The notes under the pieces were generated by a model that had not been told where the DNA came from, searched no databases, and saw nothing but the letters and a program-made list of their open reading frames with translations. The translations under genes and the position numbers were made by a program. From the NCBI RefSeq assembly GCF_019645855.1, contig NZ_CP080999.1, positions 3,989,270 to 4,021,269 of the forward strand: DNA of 32,000 nucleotides. The letters are read 5' to 3'. The DNA is from Mycobacterium malmoense. Lineage in GTDB: Bacteria > Actinomycetota > Actinomycetes > Mycobacteriales > Mycobacteriaceae. Below, in pieces: positions 1-19,004 of the stretch; positions within the stretch are counted from its first letter, which is position 1, and each line of letters starts with the position of its first letter.

Positions 1-1320
1 GCGGCGGGCCACACCGACGGCCCGGTCCACGTCGCCACCCCACACCGCGCCGGAGAGCCCATAGCAAGAGTTGTTCGCGATCGCCACCGCGTCGTCGTCG
101 TCACGGTAGCGCAGCACCGTCAGCACCGGCCCGAACACTTCCTCCTGCGCGATAGCCGAATCCGGTTGCACCCCAGTGAGAATCGTCGGTTCGAAGTAGA
201 AGCCGACATCCAGGCCGGCCGGGCGACCGCCGCCGGTCGCCAGCTTCGCGCCGTCACTAACGGCACGAGAGACGTGGCCCTCTACACGCTCTCGTTGGTC
301 CGAACTGATCAGCGGCCCCATCTGCACGTCCGGATCGATGGGGTCGCCGACCTTCACGTCACGGGCCAGCGCGACGAGCCGGTCGACGACGTCGTCGTGC
401 AACGAATCGGGCAGCAGCAGCCGGCTGTGCAGGATGCAGGCCTGACCGGCGTGCAGCGAACAGCAATCGAACAGCATCTGCCGCAGCATCTCGTCGGTCA
501 CCTGCGCGTCGTCGAGGACGATGCTTGCCGACTTCCCGCCGCACTCCAACAGGATTCGCTTCATGGTGGCGCCCGCGGCGGACATGACCTGGCAGCCGAC
601 GGCCGAGCTGCCGGTGAAGCTGACCATGTCGATGCGCGGATCGGTGGTAAGCAGCTTGGCGCCCTCGACACCCGACGGCGTGACGACGTTGACCACGCCG
701 GGCGGAATGTCGGTGTACTCGTCGATCATCCGCGCGAGCGCAAGGCCGGCGAGCGGCGTCAGCGGCGAGGGCTTGAGCACGACGGTATTGCCCGCGGCCA
801 GAGCGTTGTTCACCTTCATGACGTTGAGGCAGTGCGGGAAGTTCCACGGCGTCAGGATCGACACGACGCCGAGGGGCTCGCGACGCAGCAGCGTCGTTCC
901 GGCGCCGGTGCCGGTGACCGGCTCGTCGACCAACTGCGCGGCGAGCTGGGCCGCGCGCATGGACATGAAAGCGGCGCCGTCGATTTGCATCACGCGCTCG
1001 TTGGCGATGCAGCCCCACTCCGCCTGCGACAGCGCGAAGAACTCGTCCGCGTGCTTGCCCAGCGCGTCGCCCAGCTGATTGAGGCAGCCCGCCCGGTCCT
1101 CGAGGCTCAACGAAGTCCACGGCCCGTCGTCGAAAGCCCTACGCGCGGCCGCGATCGCCTCGCCGACCTGCGCGACGCTCGCGTCGGGCGCGGTGGCGAT
1201 GGTCTGCTCGGTGGCCGGTGAGACGTCGTCGTAGCGGCCGTCCTCCGGTTCGACCCATCTGCCGTCGATGTAGAGCCGATAGGTGTCGACAAGAGGTCCC
1301 GGAGGTGGTAGCTCGGCCAT
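1..1320 (-). CDS. Aldehyde dehydrogenase (NAD(P)+), first 440 codons; the C-terminus lies beyond the left edge of the window
   Basis: Absent from the supplied ORF track because no stop falls inside the window. The reverse-strand frame starts at ATG 1320-1318 (MAELPPPGPLVDTYRLYIDG...) with GAGGAA 5 nt upstream and stays open to nt 1. Hand translation shows ALDH hallmarks: WNFPHCLNVMKVNNALAAGNTVVLKPSPLTP, Glu box LLECGGKSA, Cys box HAGQACILHSRLL, and EEVFGPVL. Confidence 0.9.
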   Translation of the reverse strand, partial: MAELPPPGPLVDTYRLYIDGRWVEPEDGRYDDVSPATEQTIATAPDASVAQVGEAIAAARRAFDDGPWTSLSLEDRAGCLNQLGDALGKHADEFFALSQAEWGCIANERVMQIDGAAFMSMRAAQLAAQLVDEPVTGTGAGTTLLRREPLGVVSILTPWNFPHCLNVMKVNNALAAGNTVVLKPSPLTPLAGLALARMIDEYTDIPPGVVNVVTPSGVEGAKLLTTDPRIDMVSFTGSSAVGCQVMSAAGATMKRILLECGGKSASIVLDDAQVTDEMLRQMLFDCCSLHAGQACILHSRLLLPDSLHDDVVDRLVALARDVKVGDPIDPDVQMGPLISSDQRERVEGHVSRAVSDGAKLATGGGRPAGLDVGFYFEPTILTGVQPDSAIAQEEVFGPVLTVLRYRDDDDAVAIANNSCYGLSGAVWGGDVDRAVGVARR

Positions 1321-1473
1321 CTGATTCCTCACCGAAGGTCGGTCATCTAGGGACTCAGTGTTCACCCATGGACCCGCCCCGTCAATCACTAATGACGCGA
1401 AATCCAGCCCAATTCAACGTGCTGACGCCGTATTGACAGCAATAGCCGCGGCGGAGTAGACACATTCTCGCTA

Positions 1474-1494
1474 GACAGATTGGGCCGATCTGTC
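1474..1494. promoter_or_regulatory. Candidate operator: perfect inverted repeat GACAGAT-N7-ATCTGTC in the ALDH/P450 divergent intergenic region
   Basis: Read directly: arms at 1474-1480 and 1488-1494, 22 nt upstream of the P450 GTG. A TTGACA (1433-1438) and a TAGACA (1457-1462) lie 18 nt apart just upstream. No experimental support. Confidence 0.3.
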
Positions 1495-1515: not shown

Positions 1516-2700
1516 GTGCAGACCACTTTTCCACTGCACTCCCCCGACTTCTACGCGGGCGATCCCTACCCCGCGTACCGGGAGCTGCGCGCCAGCTCGC
1601 CGGTGTGTTGGAACGACGTCACCAACTTCTGGGCGCTGCTGAAGTACGAGGACATTCGCTTCGTGTCGAGCAACCCAGCGATGTTCTCCTCGACCAAGGG
1701 CGTCACCATTCCGGACCCGGCGATGGACAACCCGGTTGTCGAGAACAGCCTCATCTTCACCGACCCGCCGCGGCACCGGCAGCTGCGCAGGCTGATCAAC
1801 GCGGGCTTCACCCGGCGGCGCGTGGCCGTGCTCGAACCGAAAATCCGCGAAATCGTGCGGGGAATCCTCGACGGCCTGGAGCCCGATTCCGTTCACGAGT
1901 TCGCCGAAGAGATCGCCGCTCCACTGCCCACCCGGATGATCGCCGAGCTGATCGGTGCCCCGCCCGACGACTGGGAGCAGTTCCGGGCGTGGTCGGACGC
2001 GGCCACCGGAATCGCCGACCCGGAAATCGAACTCGACCCGCTGGTGGCCATGGGGCAGCTTTTCGAGTACTTCCAAAAGCTGATCGCGGCCAGGCGCGTC
2101 GAAGCGCGCGACGACTTGTTGTCGGTTCTAGCCGGCGCCGAGATCGACGGCCACCGGCTCACCGACGAAGACCTGCTCAACTTCGCGTTCCTGCTGTTGG
2201 TCGCCGGCAACGAAACCACCCGTAATCTGATCGCGCTGGGCACGCTGGCGCTGATCGCGCATCCCGACCAATGCCGGCTGCTGGTCGAGGATCGGTCGCT
2301 GATCCCGGGCGCCGTCGAGGAGATGTTGCGCTGGAACAGCCCGGTGGTCCACATGGCGCGCACCGCGACGGCCGACGTCGAAATCCGCGGGCAGCGCATC
2401 GCGGAGGGCGACACGGTGGTGATGCTCTACGGCTCGGCCAACCGGGACGAGGACATCTTCGGTTGTGACGCAGAAGAATTCAGGGTGACCCGCCACCCCA
2501 ACCCGCACATCGCGTTCGGGTGCGGGGAACATTCCTGCGTGGGTGCGCAATTGGCGCGCCTGGAAGCCTGCGTTATGTTCGACGAGCTGCTGCGCCGCTT
2601 CCCCAGCCTGAAACTGGCCGGCGAGGTGGACCGGATGCGGGCCACCATGGTGCCCGGGGTGAAGCGGATGCCGGTACGGCTCGGCACCGCGGCCGGATAG
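1516..2700 (+). CDS. Cytochrome P450 monooxygenase
   Basis: ORF 1480..2700. The preferred start is GTG 1516, with GGGAGG at 1504-1509. I-helix motif LLLVAGNETT, ExxR motif EEMLRW, and heme-thiolate loop FGCGEHSCVGAQLA. Confidence 0.95.
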   Translation: MQTTFPLHSPDFYAGDPYPAYRELRASSPVCWNDVTNFWALLKYEDIRFVSSNPAMFSSTKGVTIPDPAMDNPVVENSLIFTDPPRHRQLRRLINAGFTRRRVAVLEPKIREIVRGILDGLEPDSVHEFAEEIAAPLPTRMIAELIGAPPDDWEQFRAWSDAATGIADPEIELDPLVAMGQLFEYFQKLIAARRVEARDDLLSVLAGAEIDGHRLTDEDLLNFAFLLLVAGNETTRNLIALGTLALIAHPDQCRLLVEDRSLIPGAVEEMLRWNSPVVHMARTATADVEIRGQRIAEGDTVVMLYGSANRDEDIFGCDAEEFRVTRHPNPHIAFGCGEHSCVGAQLARLEACVMFDELLRRFPSLKLAGEVDRMRATMVPGVKRMPVRLGTAAG

Positions 2701-2716
2701 AAGGAGGACCAAGTTA

Positions 2717-3265
2717 GTGACCGACCAAAAGGCCGCGTTCCAAGCTAAGCTGCAGGCGCTCGTCGGCCAGCCGACCGGTGGTACCGGAAAGCCTTCGGTG
2801 GCACCGGATCCGGTCAATCAGCCGATGATCCGGCACTGGGCGCATGCGCTCGACGACATGAACCCGGTCTACCTCGATCCGGAGTTTGCGTCGTCGTCCC
2901 GGTTCGGTGGCATCGTGTCGCCTCCCGTCATGCTGCAAACCTGGACGATGCCGGCGCCGAAACTGGAAGGGATCGGGGACCGTGGTGGCGTTCCCGTCGA
3001 GATCACCAGCAGCCCAACGGCATTTCTCGATGAGGCCGGTTTCACCAGCACGGTGGCGGTCAACTCGGAGTTCGAGATCGACCGCTATCCCCGGCTGGGT
3101 GACGTCATCAGCGCAACGTCGATCTTCGAGGAGGTCTCCGACGAAAAGAAGACGGCGCTGGGCACCGGCTACTTCCTGACCTGGGTGATCACCTACACCG
3201 ACCAGAACGGTGAGGTGCTGGGCCGCCAGCGATTCCGGGTGCTGCGCTTCAGGCCGAAACGCTGA
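2717..3265 (+). CDS. Hot-dog fold protein of MaoC-dehydratase N-terminal type; resembles the non-catalytic ChsH1/HadA-like subunit
   Basis: 182 aa. Strong SD GAAGGAGG ends 8 nt before GTG 2717. Coding-like composition and no D-x4-H hydratase motif. The stop overlaps the next start (TGATG, 3263-3267). Confidence 0.75.
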   Translation: MTDQKAAFQAKLQALVGQPTGGTGKPSVAPDPVNQPMIRHWAHALDDMNPVYLDPEFASSSRFGGIVSPPVMLQTWTMPAPKLEGIGDRGGVPVEITSSPTAFLDEAGFTSTVAVNSEFEIDRYPRLGDVISATSIFEEVSDEKKTALGTGYFLTWVITYTDQNGEVLGRQRFRVLRFRPKR

Positions 3266-3672
3266 TGGCGTCCCGACTGCCACCGGCGATCAGCCCGGAC
3301 ACCGAGTTCTTCTGGAACGGGCTGCGCGAGCGCAAGCTGCTGATCCAGCGCTGTGGCGGCTGCAAAGCGCTGCGTCACCCGCCGCGCCCCATGTGCCCCA
3401 AATGCCGCTCCCTGGACTGGGATCCGATCGAGTCGTCGGGCCGGGGCACCGTCTACAGCTACGTGATGCCGCACCAACCCCGATTCCCGTTCTTCGACTA
3501 TCCGTACATCGTCGTGTTGGTGGAGCTCGACGAAGGGGTGCGGCTGGTTTCGAACCTGTCCGACATCGATCCGGCCGACGTCACGGTCGGGATGCCGGTC
3601 GAGGTCTACTACCAGACCTTTGATGACGACCTTGTGCTGCACCAGTTCCGGCCGACAGAAGGAAACCGATGA
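3265..3672 (+). CDS. DUF35-type protein (zinc ribbon plus OB fold)
   Basis: 135 aa. Rubredoxin-like CGGCKALRHPPRPMCPKCRS motif followed by an OB-like GTVYSYV...VVLVELDEGVRLVSNL segment. ATGA overlap with the next gene at 3669-3672. Confidence 0.85.
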   Translation: MASRLPPAISPDTEFFWNGLRERKLLIQRCGGCKALRHPPRPMCPKCRSLDWDPIESSGRGTVYSYVMPHQPRFPFFDYPYIVVLVELDEGVRLVSNLSDIDPADVTVGMPVEVYYQTFDDDLVLHQFRPTEGNR

Positions 3673-4148
3673 CGACCGCCAAGAGCCGCACCGCGACGCT
3701 GCAGTGGGCCGACATCGAAGTCGGCGACGAGGTTACCCCGCTCGAAATCCCGATCACCACAACAATGATCGTCGCCGGCGCGATCGCCTCGCGTGACTTC
3801 ATGCCGGTGCACCACGACCGCGACTACGCCAACAAGCAGGGCTCGCCCAACCTGTTCATGAACATCCTGACCACCAACGGCTACTGCGTGCGTTTCCTCA
3901 CCGACTGGGCCGGACCCGAGGCGATGGTCAAGAACCTGTCGATTCGCCTTGGTGTGCCATGCTTTCCCGACGATCCGCTGCGCTTCACCGGCAGCGTGAC
4001 GGGCAAAACTAGGGGTTCAGGGGGCGAGAACTTCGTCGAAGTCACCTTCAAGGGCGCCAACAGCCTCGGCGATCATGTCTCCGGCACCGCGGTGCTGAGC
4101 CTGCTCGACGGGGCCGCCGAAAGCGACCTCCAAAGAGTCCAAGCATGA
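3669..4148 (+). CDS. MaoC-like (R)-specific enoyl-CoA hydratase; resembles the catalytic ChsH2/HadB-like subunit
   Basis: 159 aa. Hydratase-2-like Asp/His motif in SRDFMPVHHDRDYA. ATGA overlap with the ltp-like gene at 4145-4148. Confidence 0.8.
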   Translation: MTTAKSRTATLQWADIEVGDEVTPLEIPITTTMIVAGAIASRDFMPVHHDRDYANKQGSPNLFMNILTTNGYCVRFLTDWAGPEAMVKNLSIRLGVPCFPDDPLRFTGSVTGKTRGSGGENFVEVTFKGANSLGDHVSGTAVLSLLDGAAESDLQRVQA

Positions 4149-5314
4149 GAAGCTCGCTGCCCGGCAGCTGCGCCATTGTCGGCATCGGCCAGACCGAGTT
4201 CTCCAAGGAGTCGGGGCGCAGCGAGCTGCAATTGGCCTGTGAGGCAGTCAGTTCCGCGCTCGACGACGCCGGCCTGGCACCTGGCGACGTCGACGGCATG
4301 GTCACCTTCACCATGGACTCCAGCGACGAGATCGACGTGGCGCGCAGCGTGGGCATCGGCGACCTGAGCTTCTTTTCCCGCGTGCCGCACGGCGGCGGGG
4401 CGGCGGCCGGCACCGTCGTGCACGCGGCGATGGCCGTCGCGACCGGCGTCGCCGACGTGGTGGTGTGCTGGCGCGCGTTCAACGAGCGGTCCGGCTTCCG
4501 GTTCGGCGGCAGCGGACGCACCAGCGCCGAGACCCCGCTGTTCATGGCGCACTACGCGCCCTTCGGATTGCTCACTCCCGCGGCGTGGGTCGCGCTGCAC
4601 GCCCAGCGCTACATGTCGACGTACGGGGTGACCAACGAGGACTTCGGTCGCATCGCCGTGGTCGATCGCGCGCACGCCGCCAGCAATCCCGACGCCTGGT
4701 TCTACCAGCGCCCGATCACACTGGAGGACCACCAGAATTCCCGCTGGATCGTCGAACCCGTGCTGCGGCTACTGGATTGCTGCCAGGAAAGCGACGGCGG
4801 GGTGGCGCTGGTGGTGACCAGCGCCGAACGCGCCCGCGACCTGCGCCAGCCGCCGGCGGTGATCACCGCGGCCGCCCAGGGCGCGGCCTACGAGGGCGAG
4901 ATGATGACCAGTTACTACCGCGAGGACATCACCGGCCTGCCCGAGATGGGAGTGGTCGCCGACCGGCTGTGGCGCGACTCGGGCCTCAAGCCGCAAGACA
5001 TCCAAACCGCCTTCATCTACGACCATTTCACGCCGTTCGTCTTCACGCAGCTCGAGGAGCTCGGCTTCTGCGGGCGCGGCGAAGCCAAGGACTTCGCCAC
5101 CATCGAACGGCTGTCGCTCGGTGGCGAGCTGCCGATCAACACCAACGGCGGGCTGCTCGGCGAGGCCTACATCCACGGCATGAACGGCATCACCGAGGGC
5201 GTGCGCCAGGTGCGCGGCACCTCCTACAACCAAGTCGACAACGTCGAGCACGTGCTGGTCACCTCGGGGACCGGCGTGCCCACCAGCGGGCTGATTCTCG
5301 CGCCGGCCGACTGA
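4145..5314 (+). CDS. Thiolase-fold lipid-transfer protein (Ltp/SCP-x-like), probably of the Ltp2 aldolase type
   Basis: 389 aa. N-terminus CAIVGIGQTEFSK and C-terminal NTNGGLLGEAYIHGMNG box are typical of SCP-x/Ltp thiolase-fold proteins. The position expected for the nucleophilic Cys reads HGGGAAAG. Confidence 0.85.
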   Translation: MRSSLPGSCAIVGIGQTEFSKESGRSELQLACEAVSSALDDAGLAPGDVDGMVTFTMDSSDEIDVARSVGIGDLSFFSRVPHGGGAAAGTVVHAAMAVATGVADVVVCWRAFNERSGFRFGGSGRTSAETPLFMAHYAPFGLLTPAAWVALHAQRYMSTYGVTNEDFGRIAVVDRAHAASNPDAWFYQRPITLEDHQNSRWIVEPVLRLLDCCQESDGGVALVVTSAERARDLRQPPAVITAAAQGAAYEGEMMTSYYREDITGLPEMGVVADRLWRDSGLKPQDIQTAFIYDHFTPFVFTQLEELGFCGRGEAKDFATIERLSLGGELPINTNGGLLGEAYIHGMNGITEGVRQVRGTSYNQVDNVEHVLVTSGTGVPTSGLILAPAD

Positions 5315-5323
5315 GGGAGCGGA

Positions 5324-5938
5324 ATGACCCAGGCTTCCGCGTTGACCCAGGCAACGGATACCCGCGAGCTCATCGTCGAGTCCGCGTACGCGTGTTTCCG
5401 CAGGCAAGGGCTGCAGAAGACGACGATCGTCGATATCGCGAGAACGGCCAACGTATCCCGGAGCACCGTTTACGAGTACTTCAGCGACAAGGGCGCCATT
5501 CTCGAAGCCTGCGCCGAGCACGCGTCCGAGCAGTTCTACCGCGAGATGTCCCAAGCGATGAACCGGGGCGTCTCACTGGAGGAAAAGCTAAGCCACGCCG
5601 CGGTATTCGTGACCCAGGCGCGAAAGGCCATCGCTTCCGGGAAGTACTTCGACGAAGACGCGATCAGCCTGCTGCTGACCAAGGACGCCGCCGTCCTGCT
5701 GCGCGAATGCGTCGAATTCTTCGCACCGTATCTGTCCGCCGCCAAGCTCACCGGTGAGGTCCGCAAGGACCTCGACGTGGAGGCCGCCGGCGAATGGTTC
5801 GCGCGCATACTGTTTTCGCTCTTCAGCACGCCGTCATCGACTTTGGACATGGACGACCCCGATGCCGTCGCCGAGTTCGTGCGCGCGCACGTGGTGCGTG
5901 GCTTCGCCGGCGATCGCCCGCGGCCGAGGCGGGCATAA
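5324..5938 (+). CDS. TetR family transcriptional regulator
   Basis: 204 aa. N-terminal HTH TRELIVESAYACFRRQGLQKTTIVDIARTANVSRSTVYEYFSDK. Starts 9 nt after the ltp stop on the same strand. Confidence 0.9.
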   Translation: MTQASALTQATDTRELIVESAYACFRRQGLQKTTIVDIARTANVSRSTVYEYFSDKGAILEACAEHASEQFYREMSQAMNRGVSLEEKLSHAAVFVTQARKAIASGKYFDEDAISLLLTKDAAVLLRECVEFFAPYLSAAKLTGEVRKDLDVEAAGEWFARILFSLFSTPSSTLDMDDPDAVAEFVRAHVVRGFAGDRPRPRRA

Positions 5939-5953
5939 AGCCGGTTGAGACCG

Positions 5954-7237
5954 TCAGGCCGTGGATGTCAACCATAGGGCACTCACCGGTACGGCGAGCA
6001 TCTTTGGCCCAAAGGACAGGGTTTGCGGCCCGGTATGCATGACGATGCCGGCGCGGAAATCGTCGCCGATCCGCTGGGCGAGGTGCCGCAGTCCGCGGAA
6101 GTCGTTGGGCCCGACGGTAGATGCTGCTTTGACCTCGATGCCCACGACGTCACCCCGCCGATTTTCGAGTACGGCATCGACCTCAACTTGATCCCTGGTT
6201 CGGTAGTGGAAGAGCGCAACTTCTTCCTCGCACCAGGTCAGCTGGCGTGCCAGTTCCATCAGAACGAATCCCTCGAGGAGCGGCCCGAACTGACCAGTAG
6301 GCCGCAAGATGCTGCGAGTATCCGCACCGATCTGGTGTGCCGCGATGCCGGAGTCGACGAACGCGAGCTTGGGGGTTGTGGTTGCTCGGCTGCTGATGTT
6401 TCGGGACCACGCCGGTATCCGCTTGACGAGAAAGACCTCTTCGAGCAGTGCGACATACTTCTTCACCGTCGTGGCGCCGAGTCCGAGTTCGTTGCTCAAT
6501 GTGGCGATGGACAGCAGCTGCCCCGATCGAGCGGCCAGCATCTGGACAAGCGCGCGCATCTCGGTTGTTCGCTCAATCTCCGACAATTGCTGCACGTCGC
6601 GCGCGATGAGGTCGCCGACGTAGGAATTGAAAAAGTTGCGGCGTCGGCGCTCGTCGGTTCGCGCAACTGCCTCAGGAAAGCCTCCACGAACAAGTCGGTC
6701 GGCGTACTCCGCACGTGAAACCGTGGAGCCGTGGCGCAGTCCCCCGTAAGCGGAGGGTGCCTCCAGGTCGCCCTGGGTGAACACGGCGTCGACGAATCCG
6801 TCAGGGGCGCTGTCGATCTCGCCCTGAGAGAAGGGCCAGAGCTCAATAGTCTCCATTCGGCCCACGAGAGTGTCGGGCAGGGATCGCAAGCCGAGCACGC
6901 GCGCCGATCCCGTCAGCAGGAAGCGCCCGGGCGTGGGGTCTGCATCCACTTGCGCCTTGATCGACAGCAGCAGATCGGGTGCTCGTTGGACCTCGTCGAT
7001 GACCATCGGGCCGGGCTGGTCGACGAAGCCGTCCGGATCCTCAAGCGCAGCCTGGCGGGTCAAGGCGGTATCGAGATCACGCCATTCGGCGTCGCGGCCC
7101 TTTGCGACGAGGCGAACCAGAGTGCTCTTGCCGCTTTGCCGGGCACCGTTGACGAGCACCACCCGGGTGTCCTCCAGCGCCGCGTTCACAGCGGCCTCGG
7201 CGTGTCTAGGCAAGGCCGGGCCAAGTATGGTTCGCAT
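5954..7237 (-). CDS. AAA+ ATPase with wHTH and C-terminal PD-(D/E)xK-like domain (AAA_14 + DUF4143 / COG1373 type)
   Basis: 427 aa. Walker A NGARQSGKST and Walker B MVIDEVQ. HTH-like LSIATLSNELGLGATTVKKYVALLEE. C-terminal nuclease-like signature VEVDAV...VVGIEVKA (nt 6128-6181). Confidence 0.85.
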   Translation of the reverse strand: MRTILGPALPRHAEAAVNAALEDTRVVLVNGARQSGKSTLVRLVAKGRDAEWRDLDTALTRQAALEDPDGFVDQPGPMVIDEVQRAPDLLLSIKAQVDADPTPGRFLLTGSARVLGLRSLPDTLVGRMETIELWPFSQGEIDSAPDGFVDAVFTQGDLEAPSAYGGLRHGSTVSRAEYADRLVRGGFPEAVARTDERRRRNFFNSYVGDLIARDVQQLSEIERTTEMRALVQMLAARSGQLLSIATLSNELGLGATTVKKYVALLEEVFLVKRIPAWSRNISSRATTTPKLAFVDSGIAAHQIGADTRSILRPTGQFGPLLEGFVLMELARQLTWCEEEVALFHYRTRDQVEVDAVLENRRGDVVGIEVKAASTVGPNDFRGLRHLAQRIGDDFRAGIVMHTGPQTLSFGPKMLAVPVSALWLTSTA

Positions 7238-7360: not shown

Positions 7361-7501
7361 CGGAGGGATCGCTCACGCGGCCGCGCCGAGCATGTTCCTA
7401 TGTAGACCTCCTAGACAAACAGCCAGTGAGCTGGTAATACCTCACCGACGCCCCTGTACCTGGGGAATTAGATGACGGGCGAGACGACCGCGGAGGCTGG
7501 C

Positions 7502-8947
7502 GTGCCACTTCTAGTTGCAGCCCCTGAGCTGTTGGCTTCGGCGGCAACGAATTTGGAAAGCATAGGTTCGGCACTGGATGCGGCCCACGCGGCGGTTGCC
7601 GTTCCGACCACCGAGCTTGTGGCCGCCGGCGCCGATGAGGTCTCGACGGCCGTGGCTGCGCTATTCGCCGGGTACGGGCAGCAGTATCAGGCGCTTGCCG
7701 GGCAGGTCGCGGCCTTTCATGGTTGGTTCACGGGCACCCTGGCCACGAACGCGAATTCGTATGCGTCCACCGAGGCCGCCAACATCGGTCAGCTGCTGTC
7801 GGGCGTGGTCAGTGGGCCCGTCCGGGAACTGACCGGGCGCCCGCTGATCGGCAACGGCGCCAACGGATACACCAATTCTCAAGGTGTAGGGACGCCCGGC
7901 GGTGCCGGCGGATGGTTGTACGGCAACGGTGGTAACGGTGGCAATAGCACCTATGGTGGAGCGGCCGGGGGCGCTGGCGGCGCCGGCGGGTGGCTGTTGG
8001 GCAACGGCGGCACGGGCGGGGCCAGCGGGCCCGGCGGTGTCGGCGGCGCGGGAGGAGCCGCCGGCTTGCTGTCGGGCGTAGCCGGGGCAACCGGCGTGAG
8101 CACACCTTTGGCAGCCAACGAAACCGTCATCTCTGTAGATCAATACGGCAACGCGATAGTAAACATCTCCGTCGGCGGCGGACCGAGCGTGGGCGCGATA
8201 GTTGACACCGGGTCCACCGGTCTTCTGCTCCCGCGCCAAGACGTCAACATAGCCAGCCTCGGCACGCCCACCGGGTCGGGCACCGTTATTTACGGCAACA
8301 GCACCAACTATGAAACCGTCCACTACGAGACGTACCAAACAACGGTAAATCTTGGGAATGGCATCGTCACGACGTCGACCGGCGTCGACGTCGCCACCTC
8401 CGCGACCGAGACGATCAATGGTGTGACAAATCCTGTTCAGCTCTCCTCGATACCCGCCATTCTGGGTATCGGGCCCAACGACGGGTACCCGCTCTCTACC
8501 CCGGTGACCTCGGCGTTGCCGGGCACCCTCGACGAGGGTGTGCTCATCAACGAACCCCAAGGTCTGCTGGAGTTCGGCTCCAACCCGCTGACCCCCCTTG
8601 CCTCGCTTACCGGATCGCCGATGACCAACCTGGAAATACAGATCAATGGCGGTTCTCTGCAAAGCGCTACCGGCGCGTTCATCGATTCCGGCGGCTTGAC
8701 CGGAGCCATCCCGTCAAACCTGATTTCGGGTGTTTCGGCCGGCAATACGGTGCCGACCGGAACGACGCTTACGGTCTATACCAGCGGCGGTCAGGAGCTG
8801 TACTCGGAAATGGTCACCAGTGCCGACGCGCCCTATGTCGTGTCATCAAGCGACCCGTTCAATACCGGGAATTACCTCTTCTCGCTGGACCCGATCTACA
8901 TTTCGAACAGCCCCAGCGGTGTGGGAATGACCGTCATCGACGCATGA
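7502..8947 (+). CDS. PE-PGRS family protein with C-terminal pepsin-like aspartic protease domain (PecA/PE_PGRS35-like)
   Basis: ORF 7472..8947. The preferred start is GTG 7502, with GGAGG at 7492-7496, giving the N-terminus PLLVAAPELLASAATNLESIGS and the second PE helix ADEVSTAVAALFAGYGQQYQALAGQVAAFH. A short Gly-rich PGRS linker spans ~7898-8075. Two catalytic triads are present: VDTGSTGLLLP (DTG at 8204-8212) and FIDSGGLTG (DSG at 8684-8692). Confidence 0.85.
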   Translation: MPLLVAAPELLASAATNLESIGSALDAAHAAVAVPTTELVAAGADEVSTAVAALFAGYGQQYQALAGQVAAFHGWFTGTLATNANSYASTEAANIGQLLSGVVSGPVRELTGRPLIGNGANGYTNSQGVGTPGGAGGWLYGNGGNGGNSTYGGAAGGAGGAGGWLLGNGGTGGASGPGGVGGAGGAAGLLSGVAGATGVSTPLAANETVISVDQYGNAIVNISVGGGPSVGAIVDTGSTGLLLPRQDVNIASLGTPTGSGTVIYGNSTNYETVHYETYQTTVNLGNGIVTTSTGVDVATSATETINGVTNPVQLSSIPAILGIGPNDGYPLSTPVTSALPGTLDEGVLINEPQGLLEFGSNPLTPLASLTGSPMTNLEIQINGGSLQSATGAFIDSGGLTGAIPSNLISGVSAGNTVPTGTTLTVYTSGGQELYSEMVTSADAPYVVSSSDPFNTGNYLFSLDPIYISNSPSGVGMTVIDA

Positions 8948-14032: not shown

Positions 14033-14836
14033 GTGACAGAAAGCCCGTCGTCGTATTTGGTGCTGGCTTCCCAGCGCAGCGGCAGCACGCTGCTGGTGGA
14101 ATCGCTGCGGGCGACCGGGGTGGCCGGGGAGCCCCAGGAATTCTTCCAGTATCTGCCGAGCACGAGCCAGGCCCCGCAGCCGCGGGAGTGGTTCGACGGC
14201 GTTGAAGACGAGTCGATCCTAAGCCTGCTCGACCCGCTGGACGAAGGCACGCCGGACCTCGCGCCGGCCGAAATCTGGCGCGACTACATCCGCACCGTCG
14301 GAAGAACACCGAACGGCGTGTGGGGCGGCAAGCTGATGTGGAACCAGACACCGCTGCTGTTGAACCGCGCGAAGGACCTGCCGCATCGATCCGGCGACGG
14401 TTTGCGGGCCGCGATCCGCGATGTCGTCGGCGAGGAACCGCTCCTGCTTTACGTGTACCGGCCCGATGTGGTGTCGCAGGCGGTGTCGTTCTGGCGTGCG
14501 GTGCAGACCCGGGTGTGGCGGGGCAGACCGGATCCGACCCGCGACGCGCGCGCCACCTACCACGCCGGGGCGATCGCCCACGTCGTCACCATGCTGCGCG
14601 CCCAGGAGCGCGGCTGGCGAAACTGGTTCGCCGAAGAAGACATCAAACCCATGGAGATTTCCTATCCGGTGCTGTGGCGCAACCTGACTCAGGTGGTGGG
14701 CACCATCCTCGACGAGTTGGGGCTCGACCCGCGGCTGGCGCCCCACCCGGTGCTGGAACGCCAGGCCGACCAGCGTTCCGACGAGTGGGTGGACCGCTAT
14801 CGTGCGGACGCCGAGAAAGAGGGACTACCGACGTGA
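14033..14836 (+). CDS. stf0: Stf0-type sulfotransferase (trehalose 2-sulfotransferase family)
   Basis: 267 aa with GTG start. [33 protein letters not shown] (PAPS-binding P-loop-like QRSGST) and the remainder match my recollection of M. tuberculosis Stf0 (Rv0295c) along the whole length. The stop overlaps the cysD start (GTGA, 14833-14836). Confidence 0.85.
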
Positions 14837-15756
14837 CCGCAACCGCACCGACAGAAACGCGACGAGTCGACGAGTTGCGGCTGCTGGAAGCCGAAGCCGT
14901 GCACATCATTCGCGAGGTCGTGGCCGAGCTGGAGCGGCCGGTGCTGCTGTTTTCGGCGGGCAAGGACTCGATCGTGCTGCTTCGCTTGGCGGAGAAGGCG
15001 TTTCGGCCGCTGCCGTTGCCGTTTCCGGTGCTGCACGTCGACACGGGCCACAACTTTCCCGAGGTGATCGAGTTTCGCGATCGCAGGGTCACCGGGCACG
15101 GGCACAGGCTGATCGTCGCCTCGGTGCAGGAATCCATCGACACCGGCCGCGTGCCCGACCCCGGTCCCGGAGCTTCGCGCAACCGGGCCCAGACGCGCAC
15201 GCTGCTCGACGCGCTGGAGGCCGGCGGCTTCGATGCGGCGTTCGGCGGCGCCCGCCGGGACGAGGAGCGCGCCCGCGCCAAGGAACGCATCCTGAGCTTC
15301 CGCGACGAGTTCGGCCAGTGGGATCCCCGCGCGCAGCGCCCGGAGCCCTGGTCGCTCTACAACGGCCGCATCAAGAAGGGCGAGCAGGTGCGGGTGTTCC
15401 CGCTGAGCAACTGGACCGAGCTCGACGTGTGGCGCTACATCGAGCTGGAAGACCTTGAAATACCGTCCATTTACTACGCCCACGAACGCGAGGTGTTCGA
15501 GCGCGACGGCATCCTGCTGGCGGTCTCGGAGTACGCCGGGCCGCGGACCGGCGAGACCGCCGCCGTGGAGTGGGTGCGCTACCGCACCGTCGGCGACCTG
15601 ACCATCACCGGGGCGGTGCGTTCCAGGGCCACCGAGATCACCGGTGTCATCGCCGAGATCTCCGCGGCCACGGTCTCCGAGCGCGGCGAGACCCGTGCCG
15701 ACGATCGCACCTCGGCCGCGGCGATGGAGGACCGCAAGCGAGAGGGTTATTTCTGA
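14833..15756 (+). CDS. cysD: Sulfate adenylyltransferase subunit 2
   Basis: The true start is GTG 14833, inside track ORF 14320..15756; the upstream part of that ORF is Arg/Pro-rich shadow. PAPS-reductase-fold motif [15 protein letters not shown], then [10 protein letters not shown] and [10 protein letters not shown]. Confidence 0.95.
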
Positions 15757-17639
15757 TGACCGCGACCGTCACCCGTCAGCTGCTGCGCATCGCCACCGCG
15801 GGTTCGGTGGACGACGGCAAGAGCACCCTGATCGGGCGGCTGCTGCACGACACCGACAGCCTACCGCTGGACCACCTGGAAGCCGTCACCGACGAAGACG
15901 GCGTCGCCGACCTGGCGGCGCTGTCCGACGGTCTGCGGGCCGAACGCGAACAGGGCATCACGATCGACGTCGCCTACCGCTTCTTTTCCACCGACGCCCG
16001 CGGCTACATCCTGGCCGACACTCCGGGCCACGAGCGCTACACCCGCAACATGTTCACCGGCGCCTCCAACGCGCATGTGGCCATCCTGCTGGTCGACGCG
16101 CGCGCCGGGGTGCTGCGACAGACCCGCAGACACGCGCGCATCGCAAAGCTGTTGGGCATCAAGCACTTTGTCGCAACGGTGAACAAGATCGACCTCATCG
16201 ACTTCGACCGGGCCAAGTTCGCCGACGTGGAAGACCAGCTGCGCCGGTTGGCGGCGCGCCTCGGCGACGTGGACATCACGGTGATCCCCATCGCGGCCAA
16301 GCACGGGGACAACGTCGTGCACCGCTCCGACCGCACGCCGTGGTACGGCGGGCCCACGCTGCTGGAGTACCTGGAAAGTGTCGAACTGGCCGCGCCGCAG
16401 GCCGAGGCGTCGCGGCTGCGGTTGCCGGTGCAGTGGGTGTCGCGGCCGACCGCCAACGTGCGTCGCCGCTACACGGGGCGGCTCGCGGCGGGAACGCTGC
16501 GCGTCGGCGATCCGGTGGTTTCGCTGCCCGCCGGCACCCGCTCGACGGTGACCGCGCTGGACACCCTCGACGACGAGCGCGCGACGGCCGTTGCGCCCCT
16601 GTCCGTTTCGATCGAGCTGGCCGACGACATCGACGTGGGCCGCGGCGACGTGCTGGTCAACGGTGCCGACGACGCGACCTGGCCGGTGCAGGCCCGAGAG
16701 CTCGACGCGACCGTGTGCTGGTTCGTCGACTCGCCGCTGCGCGCCGGCGACCGGCTGGCGCTCAAACAAACCACCAAGACGGTCCGGGCAACCGTGCAGG
16801 AGCTACACACGCGGCTGGATCCGGAAACGCTCGACGAGCTCGACAGTCCAGTCGAGTTGGCGCTCAACGACATCGGCACCGTGACCCTGCGAACCAGCTC
16901 CGTCGTCATCGCCGACACTTACGCCGACAACCGCGACAGCGGCGCGTTCATCCTGATCAACGAAACCACCAACGACACCGTCGGCGCCGGCACCATCATT
17001 GAGGCGCGGGAGGTCAAGCCGGGCACGCACCCACGCACCGACATCCGCTGGCATCCCTCGGCGCTGGACCGTGGCCACCGGTGGCGGGCCATCGGACAGG
17101 CGGGCGCGACGATCTGGTTCACCGGCCTGCCCGCGTCCGGCAAGTCGACGATCGCGGTGGCCGTGGAGCGCGCGCTCGTCGAGTCGGGGCGGGTGGCCTA
17201 CCTGCTCGACGGCGACAACCTGCGCCACGGCCTGTCCGACGACCTGGGCTTTTCCCCCGGCGACCGCACCGAAAACATCAGGCGGGTAGGCCATTTGACC
17301 CGACTGCTGGCCGACGCGGGCGTGGTCGCGCTGGCGTCGCTGGTGTCGCCGCTCAAGTCCGACCGCGAGACCGCCCGCGCCCTCAACGACGCCGCCAGGC
17401 TGCCCTTCATCGAGGTGCACGTCGCCACGTCGCTGGCCGAATGCGAAAAGCGGGACCCCAAGGGCCTCTACGCGCGCGCCCGCAGCGGCGAACTCAAAGG
17501 GCTGACCGGTGTCGACGCGCCCTATGAGCCACCCGACAATCCGGACCTCGTGCTCGACACCACCGGCGCCGACATCGACGGTCTCGCCGCGCAAGTCATC
17601 GCCCTGCTCAACGAACGCAGTCCCCGCCGACAGAGCTAG
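15756..17639 (+). CDS. cysNC: Bifunctional sulfate adenylyltransferase subunit 1 / adenylylsulfate (APS) kinase
   Basis: The true start is ATG 15756 (TGATG overlap with the cysD stop), inside track ORF 15570..17639. GTPase motifs AGSVDDGKSTLIGRLL, DTPGHERY and NKIDL. C-terminal APS kinase P-loop WFTGLPASGKSTIA and DGDNLRHGL. Confidence 0.95.
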   Translation: MTATVTRQLLRIATAGSVDDGKSTLIGRLLHDTDSLPLDHLEAVTDEDGVADLAALSDGLRAEREQGITIDVAYRFFSTDARGYILADTPGHERYTRNMFTGASNAHVAILLVDARAGVLRQTRRHARIAKLLGIKHFVATVNKIDLIDFDRAKFADVEDQLRRLAARLGDVDITVIPIAAKHGDNVVHRSDRTPWYGGPTLLEYLESVELAAPQAEASRLRLPVQWVSRPTANVRRRYTGRLAAGTLRVGDPVVSLPAGTRSTVTALDTLDDERATAVAPLSVSIELADDIDVGRGDVLVNGADDATWPVQARELDATVCWFVDSPLRAGDRLALKQTTKTVRATVQELHTRLDPETLDELDSPVELALNDIGTVTLRTSSVVIADTYADNRDSGAFILINETTNDTVGAGTIIEAREVKPGTHPRTDIRWHPSALDRGHRWRAIGQAGATIWFTGLPASGKSTIAVAVERALVESGRVAYLLDGDNLRHGLSDDLGFSPGDRTENIRRVGHLTRLLADAGVVALASLVSPLKSDRETARALNDAARLPFIEVHVATSLAECEKRDPKGLYARARSGELKGLTGVDAPYEPPDNPDLVLDTTGADIDGLAAQVIALLNERSPRRQS

Positions 17640-17752
17640 GTCGACGGTCGCGACCCGCTGCGCCCGGCGACGCCACGCTTGCGATCGCTCCTAAATTCAG
17701 CGCGAGCAAATCACTTGGTCGCCGGGAGCGGCCACGCAACCATTGCGTCGTG

Positions 17753-17881
17753 ATTGATACGGGCACACCGCAGTGGCGGGGTTGGCTTGAACGGGTCGGT
17801 GACGACTGGTTGGCGACGCTGCTGGCCGGTGTGATCGTCGCATTGGCGGTCGCCAATGCGCTCCCCAAGATCCCGTGGTGA
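17753..17881 (+). CDS. Candidate small membrane protein (42 aa, single TM helix)
   Basis: Below the track length cut-off. TTG start; product (M/L)[41 protein letters not shown]. 34 of 42 codons end in G or C (hand count), which is coding-like. The stop lies 4 nt before the in-frame GTG 17886 of the next gene. It could instead be a frameshifted N-terminal extension of that gene. Confidence 0.3.
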
Positions 17882-19004
17882 TGGCGTGAGCACCGCCAGC
17901 GTCGAACCCGACGAAAAGTCCGCTGAAGCGGCCTTCACCAGCAGCCGCGCACTCGACTACGCGCCGGGCATTCTGCTGCTGATCGCGGTGGGCGTGCTGG
18001 GCAAGTACGCCCAGATCTGGTGGAACACCCTGGCCAAACACCACCACTGGACCGTTCCCGACATCGAATATGTCTTGTGGGCCATCGTGATTGGGCTGCT
18101 CATCACCAACACCGTCGGCCTGCATCCGATATTCCGGGCGGGCGTGCTGACCTACCAATTTTGGCTCAAGGTCGGAATCGTGGCGCTGGGTTCGCGATTC
18201 GTGCTCGGCGACATAGCTAAACTCGGCGGCGTCAGCCTGGTCCAGATTCTGGTGGACATGGCGGTCGCGGGCACCATCATCCTGGTCGTCGCACGGGTAT
18301 TCGGGCTATCGGGCAAGCTGGGCTCGCTGCTGGCGATAGGGACCTCGGTCTGCGGGGTGTCCGCCATCGTGGCCGCCAAGGGTGCGATCCGGGCCCGCAA
18401 CGCCGACGTCAGCTACGCGATCGCGGCGATCCTGGCCTTGGGCGCGGTGGGGCTGTTCGTGTTGCCGCCGTTGGGGCATGCCATCGGCCTCACCGACTAC
18501 GAATTCGGCCTGTGGGCCGGCCTGTCGGTGGACAACACGGCGGAAACCACCGCCACCGGCTACCTGTTTTCCGACCCCGCCGGCAAGATCGCCGTGCTGG
18601 TCAAGTCGACCCGCAACGCGCTCATCGGGTTCGTCGTCCTGGGTTTCGCGCTGTTTTGGGCGGCGCGCGGGCAAGCCGACGAGATCGCGCCCGGCGCAAC
18701 GGCCAAGGCCGCCTTCATCTGGGAGAAATTCCCGAAATTCGTGCTCGGCTTCCTGGCGGTGTCGGCGATCGCGACCGCCGGCTGGCTGAGCAAGGGACAA
18801 ACCGCCAACCTGGCCAACGTGTCGAAGTGGGCGTTCCTGTTGACCTTCGCCGGCGTCGGGCTCACCACCGACATCCGCCAAATCGCGCGCACCGGGTGGC
18901 GCCCGCTCGTCGTCGCGATCATCGGGCTCACCGTCGTCGCATCGGTCTCCCTGGGTCTCGTCCTGCTCACCTCGCGCGTGTTCCATTGGGGCCTAAGCAC
19001 CTAA
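17856..19004 (+). CDS. YeiH/UPF0324 family membrane protein (annotated in databases as a putative sulfate exporter family transporter)
   Basis: 382 aa from ATG 17856 (alternative start GTG 17886). Polytopic. [15 protein letters not shown] and [18 protein letters not shown] correspond to E. coli YeiH LIGAGSSICGAAAVLA and GIYIGSTVHEVAQVVAAG. Confidence 0.8.

What the first reader, a model, noticed from the sequence alone, without database searches (positions are those of the whole stretch)
1516..5314. igr-like operon: P450 + split ChsH1 (hot-dog and DUF35 as separate ORFs) + ChsH2-like hydratase + Ltp2-like protein, without fadE genes
Five same-strand genes are tightly coupled. A strong SD (GAAGGAGG) precedes 2717, and there are stop/start overlaps TGATG at 3263-3267 and ATGA at 3669-3672 and 4145-4148. 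The domain order is P450, non-catalytic hot-dog, DUF35 zinc ribbon/OB fold, catalytic hot-dog (DFMPVHHD), then thiolase-fold Ltp. The M. tuberculosis igr cholesterol side-chain operon is cyp125-fadE28-fadE29-chsH1-chsH2-ltp2. There, ChsH1 carries the hot-dog and DUF35 domains in one ~311-aa chain and uses DUF35 to dock the Ltp2 retro-aldolase. Here the same two domains are separate ORFs (182 + 135 aa) overlapping by one nucleotide, and the acyl-CoA dehydrogenase pair is absent. This looks like a paralogous hydratase/retro-aldolase module for C-C cleavage of a P450-oxidised branched or steroid-like side chain of unknown identity. An aldehyde dehydrogenase is encoded divergently, which fits an aldehyde-releasing retro-aldol step.
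Basis: partly seen in the sequence, partly recalled or inferred. Interest (0 to 1): 0.6.

Follow-up and report, generated by a model that had tools for sequence, protein, structure and literature searches.

The report
Trimmed third steroid side-chain cleavage operon
This Mycobacterium carries a cut-down copy of an unstudied third set of steroid-type side-chain cleavage genes (a P450, a two-part hydratase, a zinc-ribbon helper and an aldolase); most relatives still have two dehydrogenase genes and a CoA-transferase gene that this genome deleted.

Summary
P450, non-catalytic hot-dog, free DUF35, catalytic hot-dog, Ltp2-type aldolase and TetR are intact and translationally coupled at the stated coordinates.

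- The module is a real paralogue. The canonical igr operon, with a fused ChsH2, lies elsewhere in the same genome.
- The missing fadE genes are a derived loss. In 60 of 75 orthologous loci across the genus the layout is CoA-transferase<ALDH<|>P450>ACADα>hot-dog>DUF35>ACADβ>hot-dog>Ltp>(ADH)>TetR. The core order matches Rhodococcus casLMNOP, not igr.
- Remnants of both ACAD 3' ends remain in the window at 2701-2716 and 3658-3672.
- ACADs and CoA-transferase were lost together at least six times, with different breakpoints. The retained genes stay under purifying selection afterwards (dN/dS about 0.08).
- The hot-dog|DUF35 split is present in 73 of 73 loci, so it is ancient and not a frameshift.
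- Ltp has the Ltp2 catalytic tyrosines, which predict a ketone product. ALDH is coupled to the CoA-transferase. ALDH therefore more likely serves alcohol-to-acid oxidation than a retro-aldol aldehyde.

The substrate is unknown. The operon forms a third clade beside igr and cas, and I found no paper on it. Earlier notes of this scan record free-DUF35 aldolase modules on other DNA, but not this operon.

The parts
1..1389 (-). Aldehyde dehydrogenase, divergent from the operon. Its 3' end runs about 150 nt past the window start (512-aa ORF in L014).
   Evidence: Pfam Aldedh 5e-148. Orthologues are 65-86% identical and always divergent from the operon. In full loci it is followed by a CoA-transferase gene, which is missing here.
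1474..1494 (.). Palindrome GACAGAT-N7-ATCTGTC in the ALDH|P450 intergenic region; candidate operator of the operon's TetR.
   Evidence: Sequence. A GACAnnnT...AnnnTGTC palindrome occurs in 49 of 68 orthologous intergenic regions. TetR binding is inferred.
1516..2700 (+). Cytochrome P450 of the CYP125/124/142 group (394 aa).
   Evidence: Pfam p450. Best solved match is CYP125MRCA at 2e-98, about 47% identity counted from the printed alignment. 35% identity to the genome's own Cyp125. FGCGEHSCVG heme loop and AGNET I-helix motif. Orthologues align from residue 1 of this start.
2701..2716 (+). Remnant of the 3' end of the deleted ACADα gene; carries the Shine-Dalgarno sequence of the next gene.
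   Evidence: AAGGAGGACCAAGTTA corresponds to the last codons of ACADα in full loci (for example L045 ...AAAGGAGGATCGAGCTAA GTG).
2717..3265 (+). Non-catalytic hot-dog subunit (182 aa), equivalent to the MaoC-like N-terminal domain of ChsH2/CasM.
   Evidence: Pfam FAS1_DH_region. PDB 4WNB_A ChsH2 5e-27 over residues 16-180. 36% identity to own ChsH2 N-domain, 49% to the cas-type fused protein. No D-x4-H pair.
3265..3672 (+). Free DUF35 protein (135 aa: zinc ribbon plus OB fold), the expected docking partner of Ltp. Its last 4 codons plus stop (3658-3672) come from the 3' end of the deleted ACADβ gene.
   Evidence: Pfam zf-ChsH2 and OB_ChsH2_C. PDB 6OK1_B ChsH2(DUF35) 3e-41. Cys30/33/44/47. The tail GAAGGAAACCGATGA is identical to the ACADβ end in L057.
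3669..4148 (+). Catalytic hot-dog hydratase subunit (159 aa), ChsH1/CasO-like.
   Evidence: Pfam MaoC_dehydratas. PDB 4WNB_B ChsH1 1e-30, against HadB at 2e-5. D43-x4-H48 conserved in 15 of 15 orthologues.
4145..5314 (+). Ltp2-type thiolase-fold retro-aldolase (389 aa).
   Evidence: NCBIfam NF005892 at 675 bits, above its cut-off of 469. PDB 6OK1_A TcLtp2 2e-173. YDHF at 292-295 and AYIHG (Tyr342) correspond to TcLtp2 Tyr294/His296/Tyr344. No Cys between residues 33 and 107. 66% identity to own Ltp2.
5324..5938 (+). TetR-family regulator; last gene of the cluster in the 70 of 75 loci whose fetched stretch reaches the end of the cluster.
   Evidence: Pfam TetR_N 1e-12. Present after Ltp, or after the ADH, in orthologous loci.

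Best explanation
The window holds a reduced but working copy of a third ChsE/ChsH/Ltp2-type operon. This operon is Mycobacterium-wide and is distinct from both igr (cholesterol) and cas (cholate).

In its full form the cluster most likely works as follows:
- The CYP125-like P450, helped by a Zn-ADH and the divergent ALDH, oxidises a terminal methyl group of a branched side chain to a carboxylate.
- The family III CoA-transferase makes the CoA thioester.
- The α/β acyl-CoA dehydrogenase pair desaturates it.
- The heteromeric hot-dog hydratase (a non-catalytic subunit plus a catalytic D-x4-H subunit) adds water to give a tertiary β-hydroxyacyl-CoA.
- The Ltp2-type aldolase, held by the free DUF35 protein, cleaves this into a ketone and propionyl-CoA.
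- A TetR repressor controls the divergent promoters through a conserved palindrome.

In this genome three precise deletions removed the CoA-transferase and both dehydrogenase genes. They kept the ribosome-binding sites of the downstream genes. The remaining P450, ALDH, hydratase, DUF35-aldolase and TetR must therefore receive their enoyl-CoA either from enzymes encoded elsewhere (for example the igr or neighbouring ACAD pairs and a FadD ligase) or from a substrate that is already unsaturated.

Shown: gene content, homology, catalytic motifs, direction and recurrence of the deletions, and purifying selection. Inferred: each reaction, complex formation, supply in trans, and the substrate (a steroid or steroid-like terpenoid, unknown).
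For: Homology and motifs:
- Homology.
- Catalytic signatures: YDHF and Tyr342 in Ltp, D43/H48 in the second hot-dog only, a Cys4 ribbon in DUF35, and the heme loop in the P450.
- A canonical igr operon with fused ChsH2 exists elsewhere in the genome.

Ancestral layout:
- 60 of 75 loci have the full layout with ACADα and ACADβ.
- A CoA-transferase lies next to ALDH in about 55 loci, with a 4-nt stop/start overlap in L054. A Zn-ADH is present in 21 loci.
- Gene order and closer identities match the cas-type cluster: ACADβ 45% against 31% for igr, hot-dog N 49% against 36% (locus tags in PMC8399759).
- Trees resolve igr and cas as supported groups apart from the P450-operon rows, which form their own supported clade only in the catalytic hot-dog tree.

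Deletion direction and recurrence:
- ACAD remnants lie at both junctions; EGNR* is 15/15 nt identical to the ACADβ end of L057.
- The root state is 'ACAD present', with 8 parsimony losses.
- Breakpoints differ between lineages, and some keep the ACADβ start and end.

Function after the loss:
- Pairs that share one deletion by descent show pooled dN/dS of 0.08-0.09 at dS 0.37-0.55. Full operons show 0.06-0.12.
- The conserved palindrome is in 49 of 68 intergenic regions.
Against:
- The substrate is unknown.
- The operon has no ferredoxin and, in this genome, no CoA-activating enzyme of its own.
- Further decay in some relatives (L049 keeps only the two hot-dogs; L051 lost Ltp and most of DUF35) shows the reduced form is not stable everywhere.
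- For the window itself, post-deletion selection is inferred from other lineages, because its nearest neighbours in the tree are full-layout loci.
- Ltp is slightly closer to igr Ltp2 (66%) than to the cas-type aldolase (62%). ACADα is equidistant from both. The kinship to cas therefore rests on gene order and three of six proteins.
Confidence: 0.72

Rival explanations
1. Back-up copy for cholesterol. The reduced operon has no substrate of its own. It acts on the same intermediate as igr (3-oxo-4,17-pregnadiene-20-carboxyl-CoA made by ChsE1-ChsE2), as a second ChsH1-ChsH2-Ltp2 under different regulation.
For: Ltp is 66% identical to own Ltp2 and keeps identical catalytic motifs. Loss of the dedicated CoA-transferase and ACADs means the enoyl-CoA must come from another pathway. 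The genome has igr and a second ACAD pair 35 kb from it.
Against: The hot-dog subunits, which shape the substrate pocket, are only 36-43% identical to ChsH2/ChsH1. The P450 and ALDH are retained under purifying selection in seven ACAD-less loci, which a pure back-up hydratase-aldolase would not need. The regulator is its own TetR, and from memory the palindrome does not resemble the KstR box.
Confidence: 0.2
2. Decaying remnant. After the dehydrogenase genes were lost the rest is non-functional and only looks intact because too little time has passed.
For: Relatives show further losses: P450 in six loci, DUF35 and Ltp in L049 and L051, and broken ALDH and TetR in the M. genavense locus.
Against: dN/dS is 0.03-0.15 in lineage pairs that inherited the same deletion and have since diverged to dS 0.37-0.55, the same as in full operons. 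All deletions preserve the downstream ribosome-binding sites and start codons. All five ORFs are intact with their catalytic motifs.
Confidence: 0.07
3. First reader's version. A Sal-like module releases an aldehyde by retro-aldol cleavage of a secondary β-hydroxyacyl-CoA, and the divergent ALDH then oxidises that aldehyde.
For: This logic exists in Proteobacteria (Shy-Sal-Sad) and in the Mycolicibacterium HBC operon, where a free DUF35 protein, a Sal-like aldolase and an ALDH are neighbours (PMC11333196 and PMC10398937).
Against: Ltp has YDHF plus the second tyrosine, like TcLtp2, not the YDCY of Sal. It scores 580 bits against TcLtp2 and 143 bits against CtSal 9MYR_A. ALDH is translationally coupled to a CoA-transferase in the ancestral layout, which fits acid formation before CoA activation.
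Confidence: 0.1
4. FAS-II type (HadAB-like) dehydratase for mycolic acid synthesis.
For: Weak NCBIfam hits of the catalytic hot-dog to HadB models (4e-7, 30 bits against cut-offs of 203-350).
Against: ChsH1/ChsH2 match at 1e-27 to 1e-30, against HadB at 1e-5. The genome's own Had-like pair is a separate long branch in the trees. The context is DUF35 plus Ltp2.
Confidence: 0.01

Closest known systems
igr operon of M. tuberculosis (cyp125-fadE28-fadE29-chsH2-chsH1-ltp2; ChsE1-ChsE2, ChsH1-ChsH2, Ltp2)
   Same: Same set of protein families, headed by a CYP125-like P450. Heteromeric hot-dog hydratase with one catalytic subunit. DUF35-dependent Ltp2-type aldolase with identical catalytic motifs. 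Ltp is 66% identical to the genome's own Ltp2.
   Different: Separate clade. Different gene order: ACADs interleaved in the ancestral layout and absent here. ChsH2 is split into two genes. It has its own TetR, a divergent ALDH and, ancestrally, a CoA-transferase. Hot-dogs are only 36-43% and the P450 only 35% identical to the igr proteins. The true igr operon is elsewhere in the genome.
casLMNOP of the Rhodococcus jostii RHA1 cholate cluster (C3 side-chain removal from bile acids)
   Same: The ancestral gene order ACAD-hydratase α-ACAD-hydratase β-aldolase is identical. ACADβ, both hot-dogs and DUF35 are closer to the cas-type proteins (45-50%) than to the igr proteins (31-43%).
   Different: In the cas-type locus the hydratase α subunit is fused to DUF35. 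No P450, ALDH, CoA-transferase or TetR lies in the core. The mycobacterial operon is not nested in the cas clade. Identifying L119 as RHA1 rests on contig length and gene order.
TcLtp2-ChsH2(DUF35) of Thermomonospora curvata (PDB 6OK1)
   Same: Best solved relatives of both Ltp (2e-173) and the free DUF35 protein (3e-41). Tyr294/His296/Tyr344 equivalents are conserved.
   Different: In T. curvata DUF35 is the C-terminal domain of ChsH2; it was expressed separately only for crystallography.
Mycolicibacterium HBC operon (atf1/msSal aldolase, chsH4/msShy free DUF35, chsE6 ACAD, kstR3 TetR, msRed ALDH)
   Same: Precedent in mycobacteria for a stand-alone DUF35 protein serving a thiolase-fold aldolase, with a TetR and an ALDH next door (PMC10398937, PMC11333196).
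   Different: That aldolase is Sal-like, cleaves a C5 side chain and releases an aldehyde. There is no hot-dog pair and no P450. A different paralogue in this genome (about 35% identity, C1:770,953) is the likelier counterpart.
Comamonas testosteroni TA441 ORF40-44 (ChsE1E2, ChsH1H2, Ltp2)
   Same: Experiment showed that ChsH2 MaoC and ChsH2 DUF35 expressed as separate proteins still give hydratase and aldolase activity (PMC12502768). A natural split is therefore functionally plausible.
   Different: There the natural gene is fused, and it is a proteobacterial system for cholic acid.

Membership tests
Ltp2-type steroid side-chain retro-aldolase (thiolase fold) | Thiolase fold without the nucleophilic cysteine | tested here: met
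   Pfam Thiolase_C_1/Thiolase_N. No Cys between residues 33 and 107; the loop reads PHGGGAAAG. Aligned to TcLtp2 over 384 residues.
Ltp2-type steroid side-chain retro-aldolase (thiolase fold) | YDHF motif (catalytic base Tyr294, oxyanion His296) and a second catalytic Tyr344 (TcLtp2 numbering) | tested here: met
   Y292-D-H294-F and GEAY342IHG align to these positions. Residue roles come from PMC12329534. Conserved in 13 of 13 orthologues.
Ltp2-type steroid side-chain retro-aldolase (thiolase fold) | Partner DUF35 domain (zinc ribbon plus OB fold) encoded alongside | tested here: met
   A free 135-aa DUF35 protein lies two genes upstream, with a Cys4 ribbon and a 3e-41 match to 6OK1_B.
Ltp2-type steroid side-chain retro-aldolase (thiolase fold) | [quoted passage not shown] | not testable with these tools
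   Needs co-expression, pull-down and an enzyme assay.
ChsH1-ChsH2 / CasO-CasM heteromeric MaoC hydratase | Two hot-dog subunits, only one with the catalytic Asp/His pair | tested here: met
   D43-x4-H48 occurs only in the 159-aa protein and not in the 182-aa protein. Matches to 4WNB chains A and B.
ChsH1-ChsH2 / CasO-CasM heteromeric MaoC hydratase | Non-catalytic subunit carries DUF35 as a C-terminal domain of the same chain | tested here: not met
   The stop codon of the hot-dog gene precedes or overlaps the DUF35 start in 73 of 73 orthologous loci. The cut falls in the interdomain linker: the hot-dog aligns to ChsH2 residues 6-167 and DUF35 to residues 186-297.
ChsH1-ChsH2 / CasO-CasM heteromeric MaoC hydratase | Groups with ChsH/Cas rather than HadA/HadB | tested here: met
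   E-values of 1e-27 to 1e-30 against 1e-5. In the trees the Had and module-3 rows are separate long branches.
igr operon (orthologue of Rv3545c-Rv3540c) | Gene order cyp125-fadE28-fadE29-chsH2-chsH1-ltp2 and orthology to the Mtb genes | tested here: not met
   The canonical igr is at G000:C1:4.873-4.879 Mb. The window's proteins fall outside the igr clade, which has 100/100 support. The ancestral order is cas-like.
cas (cholate) C3 side-chain module casLMNOP | Order ACAD-hydratase-ACAD-hydratase-aldolase and membership of the cas clade | tested here: inconclusive
   The order is met in 60 of 75 orthologous loci but not in the window. Identities are closer to cas for four of six proteins. The trees place the operon as its own group, not inside cas.
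CYP125 family (P450 nomenclature: more than 40% identity to a member) | At least 40% identity to a named CYP125 | tested here: inconclusive
   35% to the genome's own igr Cyp125. About 47% to the reconstructed CYP125MRCA 8VXI, counted by hand. Extant CYP125, CYP124 and CYP142 structures all score lower. No formal CYP name could be assigned.

The most novel reading that the evidence does not exclude
Slow-growing mycobacteria have repeatedly (at least six times) and in an all-or-none way discarded the 'activation half' of this operon (CoA-transferase, ACADα, ACADβ, and often the Zn-ADH). They kept the hydratase and DUF35-aldolase, and often the P450 and ALDH, under strong selection. This could mark a convergent re-wiring. 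In one version the module is plugged into another pathway's enoyl-CoA pool. In another it now handles a substrate whose side chain is already unsaturated, such as an isopropylidene or Δ17(20)/Δ24-type group, so that P450 plus ALDH directly give an α,β-unsaturated acid and no dehydrogenase is needed.
Probability: 0.3. Interest if true: 0.65.

Novelty: new variant of a known kind. Interest (0 to 1): 0.5.

Why it matters
Steroid side-chain removal by ChsE/ChsH/Ltp2 is a drug target in M. tuberculosis and a tool in industrial steroid production.

This work defines a third, uncharacterised operon family of that kind. It is present in roughly half of the slow-growing Mycobacterium species sampled, including members of the M. 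avium and M. kansasii complexes and many soil MAGs. It has its own P450, CoA-transferase, ALDH and TetR.

- It offers a natural experiment showing that the ChsH2 hot-dog and DUF35 domains work as separate proteins.
- Many independent lineages have deleted the dehydrogenase and CoA-transferase genes but keep the rest under selection. This makes the modularity of these pathways directly testable.

For the window itself the practical message is more modest. The 'missing fadE' feature is a deletion scar, not a new pathway design.

Tried and rejected
- HadAB reading: rejected on E-values and trees.
- Sequencing frameshift at 3263-3267: rejected, because the split is present in 73 of 73 loci, including the 63-70% clade and a copy in another genus.
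- 'ACAD-less is ancestral and the ACADs were inserted': rejected by the ACAD 3' remnants at both junctions, the ACADβ start-plus-end remnants in L048, L090 and L088, and the full layout in the outgroup clade.
- A single shared deletion spread by descent: rejected for most lineages by the different breakpoints and the scattered tree positions. It cannot be excluded for the window together with L056, L061 and L064, whose grouping has 0.99 support.
- Remnant of the CoA-transferase next to ALDH in this genome: none found.
- Biopython's dN/dS routine timed out, so I wrote my own Nei-Gojobori count.
- Literature searches for a description of this operon found none in the held library.
- I did not run structure prediction, because sequence matches to solved ChsH1/ChsH2/Ltp2/DUF35 structures were already decisive.
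- The organism name (M. malmoense, from an earlier agent's note) was not verified.
- That M. tuberculosis lacks this operon is only my recollection, not tested.

Full report
**1. Observation**

- P450: 1516-2700. It starts at a GTG six nucleotides after GGGAGG, and orthologues align from residue 1 of this start.
- First hot-dog: 2717-3265.
- DUF35: 3265-3672.
- Second hot-dog: 3669-4148.
- Ltp: 4145-5314.

GAAGGAGG sits at 2700-2707. The TGATG and ATGA overlaps are real.

Pfam gives p450; FAS1_DH_region; zf-ChsH2 plus OB_ChsH2_C; MaoC_dehydratas; and Thiolase_C_1/Thiolase_N. It also finds a divergent aldehyde dehydrogenase and a downstream TetR.

Matches to solved structures:
- First hot-dog to ChsH2 (4WNB_A): 5e-27.
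- Second hot-dog to ChsH1 (4WNB_B): 1e-30, against 2e-5 for HadB.
- DUF35 to T. curvata ChsH2(DUF35), 6OK1_B: 3e-41.
- Ltp to TcLtp2, 6OK1_A: 2e-173.
- Ltp also passes NCBIfam NF005892 at 675 bits, above its cut-off of 469.

Catalytic signatures are in place.
- D43-x4-H48 occurs only in the second hot-dog.
- DUF35 has four zinc-ribbon cysteines.
- Ltp has YDHF (Y292/H294) and Tyr342, the equivalents of TcLtp2 Tyr294/His296/Tyr344.
- Ltp has no cysteine where a thiolase nucleophile would sit.

The PDB chain labels of 4W78 are the reverse of those of 4WNB, which may be the source of the swap.

**2. A paralogue, not igr**

The genome is a single contig of 5.32 Mb. An earlier agent's note names it M. 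malmoense; I did not verify this. It has a canonical igr operon 0.88 Mb away: cyp125-fadE28-fadE29, a fused 315-aa chsH2, chsH1 and ltp2.

Identities of the window's proteins to the igr proteins:

| Protein | Identity to igr counterpart |
|---|---|
| P450 | 35% |
| Hot-dog N | 36% |
| DUF35 | 42% |
| Catalytic hot-dog | 43% |
| Ltp | 66% |

The flanks (dapD/dapE, MFS transporter, fadD, α/β-hydrolase) resemble, from memory, the Rv1188-Rv1202 region of M. tuberculosis. I recall no such operon there; this was not tested.

**3. The decisive finding: the missing fadE genes are a deletion**

The first hot-dog has orthologues at 63-88% identity in about 70 of 150 sampled genomes of the genus. I fetched 74 of those loci and classified them together with the window, 75 loci in all.

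- 56 loci, plus 4 cut by contig ends, have the layout P450>ACADα>hot-dog N>DUF35>ACADβ>hot-dog C>Ltp>TetR, with ALDH divergent. ACADα is 48% identical to FadE29 and ACADβ 31% to FadE28.
- In about 55 of these a double-domain family III CoA-transferase follows ALDH, with a 4-nt overlap in L054.
- In 21 of them a Zn-alcohol dehydrogenase lies between Ltp and TetR.
- Seven loci, the window included, lack both ACADs and the CoA-transferase.
- Six more lack the P450 as well.
- Two are further decayed.
- No locus has lost only one ACAD.

The scars are visible in the window.
- The 16 nt between the P450 stop and the hot-dog start (2701-2716) are the last codons of ACADα. They carry the hot-dog's Shine-Dalgarno sequence.
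- The DUF35 ORF ends in GAA GGA AAC CGA TGA (3658-3672). This is identical in 15 of 15 nt to the end of ACADβ in the nearest full locus, L057 (YPEGNR*).

**4. Recurrent loss, continued selection**

On a tree of the four shared genes, rooted on the 63-70% clade, the ACAD-less state needs eight changes from an ACAD-bearing root.

Breakpoints differ between lineages. L048/L090 and L088 still hold the start and the end of ACADβ, with different internal deletions. The window may share its event with L056, L061 and L064, whose group has 0.99 support. A conservative count is therefore at least six independent events.

Every deletion keeps the downstream ribosome-binding site.

Pairs that inherited the same deletion and then diverged (L056/L064, L048/L090, L050/L093; dS 0.37-0.55) show dN/dS of 0.03-0.15 for the retained genes, pooled 0.08-0.09. 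Full operons give 0.06-0.12. The reduced operon is therefore maintained by selection and is not merely young debris. Some lineages did go on to lose more.

**5. The split**

In 73 of 73 loci the hot-dog stop precedes or overlaps the DUF35 start, and in 61 of them by the same 1-nt overlap. This includes the second clade and a copy in another genus (L122).

The cut falls in the ChsH2 interdomain linker, and both halves are complete domains. The split is old and is not a sequencing artefact.

Free DUF35 partners are known:
- ChsH4/msShy with a Sal-like aldolase in Mycolicibacterium (PMC10398937, PMC11333196).
- ChsH2 split artificially in C. testosteroni stays active (PMC12502768).
- Earlier notes of this scan list free-DUF35 aldolase modules in other phyla.

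None of these is this operon.

**6. Relation to cas**

Outside the genus the best hits to the first hot-dog are 44-51% identical.

One lies in L119, on a 7,804,765-bp contig of a four-contig 9.7-Mb genome. By size this matches Rhodococcus jostii RHA1 (my inference). The position is about where the cas cluster should be. The order there is ACAD, fused hydratase, ACAD, hydratase, aldolase. That matches casL-M-N-O-P, whose locus tags RS28440-RS28460 are consecutive (PMC8399759).

The mycobacterial operon shares this order. It is closer to the cas-type proteins for four of six proteins:

| Protein | Identity to cas-type | Identity to igr |
|---|---|---|
| ACADβ | 45% | 31% |
| Hot-dog N | 49% | 36% |
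| Catalytic hot-dog | 50% | 43% |
| DUF35 | 48% | 42% |
| ACADα | 48% | 48% |
| Ltp | 62% | 66% |

ML trees of hot-dog N, the catalytic hot-dog and ACADβ give three groups: igr (100/100), cas, and the P450-linked operon, with none nested in another. Deep branching is unresolved. I therefore treat it as a third family.

**7. The P450 and the ALDH**

The P450's best solved match is the reconstructed CYP125 ancestor at 2e-98, about 47% identity counted by hand. Extant CYP125, CYP124 and CYP142 score 1e-67 to 1e-77. It is a CYP125-group enzyme, but no formal CYP name could be assigned.

Three things point to ALDH acting in the upper route (methyl to alcohol to aldehyde to acid to CoA ester) rather than on a cleavage product:
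- ALDH is coupled to a CoA-transferase in the ancestral layout.
- A Zn-ADH is often present.
- Ltp has the Ltp2 signature, not the Sal signature (YDHF against YDCY; PMC12329534).

A GACAnnnT...AnnnTGTC palindrome (window 1474-1494) recurs in 49 of 68 ALDH|P450 spacers. It is the likely TetR operator.

**8. Limits**

- The substrate is unknown.
- In-trans suppliers of ACAD activity are inferred. Candidates are igr, or a pair at C1:4,837,964-4,840,270 that is 52% and 41% identical to the lost ACADs.
- I found no paper describing this operon in the held library.
- Named species carrying it include M. bohemicum, M. paraense, M. szulgai, M. gastri, M. persicum, M. asiaticum, M. genavense, M. colombiense, M. 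arosiense and M. nebraskense, plus many soil MAGs.

**Verdict**

This is a new variant of a known kind: an unstudied third ChsE/ChsH/Ltp2-type operon. The window holds a selected, trimmed derivative of it. Interest is moderate.

Noticed in passing
G000:C1:2,562,807-2,567,690 (outside the window): A further paralogous module: ACADα-like (41%), two hot-dog genes (24-25%), a thiolase-like gene (33%) and a free DUF35 (30%), in the order hot-dog, hot-dog, thiolase, DUF35.
   Followed up: no
G000:C1:770,953-772,584 (outside the window): An Ltp-like gene (35%) lies directly next to a DUF35 gene (35%). It may be the counterpart of the Mycolicibacterium HBC (Sal-like aldolase plus free DUF35) pair.
   Followed up: no
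G000:C1:4,837,964-4,840,270 (outside the window): The closest in-genome homologues of the deleted ACADα/ACADβ (52% and 41%) lie 35 kb from igr. They are closer than FadE29/FadE28 and are candidates to supply the activity in trans.
   Followed up: partly
window 1474-1494: The palindrome GACAGAT-N7-ATCTGTC between ALDH and P450 is conserved in 49 of 68 orthologous spacers. It is the likely operator of the operon's TetR.
   Followed up: partly
L054:1548-5633 and 14774-18243 (second-clade locus): Second-clade copies of the operon are surrounded by two CoA-transferase genes, a MaoC hydratase, an Amidohydro_2 gene, a SnoaL_4 gene and a second P450. This is a larger catabolic island.
   Followed up: no
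L047 (contig length 920,843 = M. genavense ATCC 51234 scaffold): In this ACAD-less locus ALDH and TetR are in pieces, and a 66%-identical P450 pseudogene copy lies beside ALDH. This fits ongoing decay in a reduced genome.
   Followed up: no
L014:11284-12519 (about 1.6 kb beyond the window start): A HipA-like toxin kinase gene (HipA_C 1e-48) lies between the α/β-hydrolase and fadD genes.
   Followed up: no
L180 (MAG labelled Kribbellaceae) and L122 (genus g20): Near-identical operon pieces occur outside the genus. The Kribbellaceae contig (83% identity) is probably mis-binned. The g20 copy (64-81%) is a full operon in a sister genus.
   Followed up: no
PDB 4W78 and 4WNB: The chain names are inverted between the two entries: the 178-aa chain is called ChsH1 in 4W78 and ChsH2 in 4WNB. 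This is a labelling inconsistency that can mislead annotation.
   Followed up: no
window 5954-7237 (-) and 7472-8947 (+): A DUF4143/AAA_14 ATPase gene and a PE-PGRS protein with a C-terminal aspartyl-protease domain follow the TetR gene. Neither is part of the operon in relatives.
   Followed up: no
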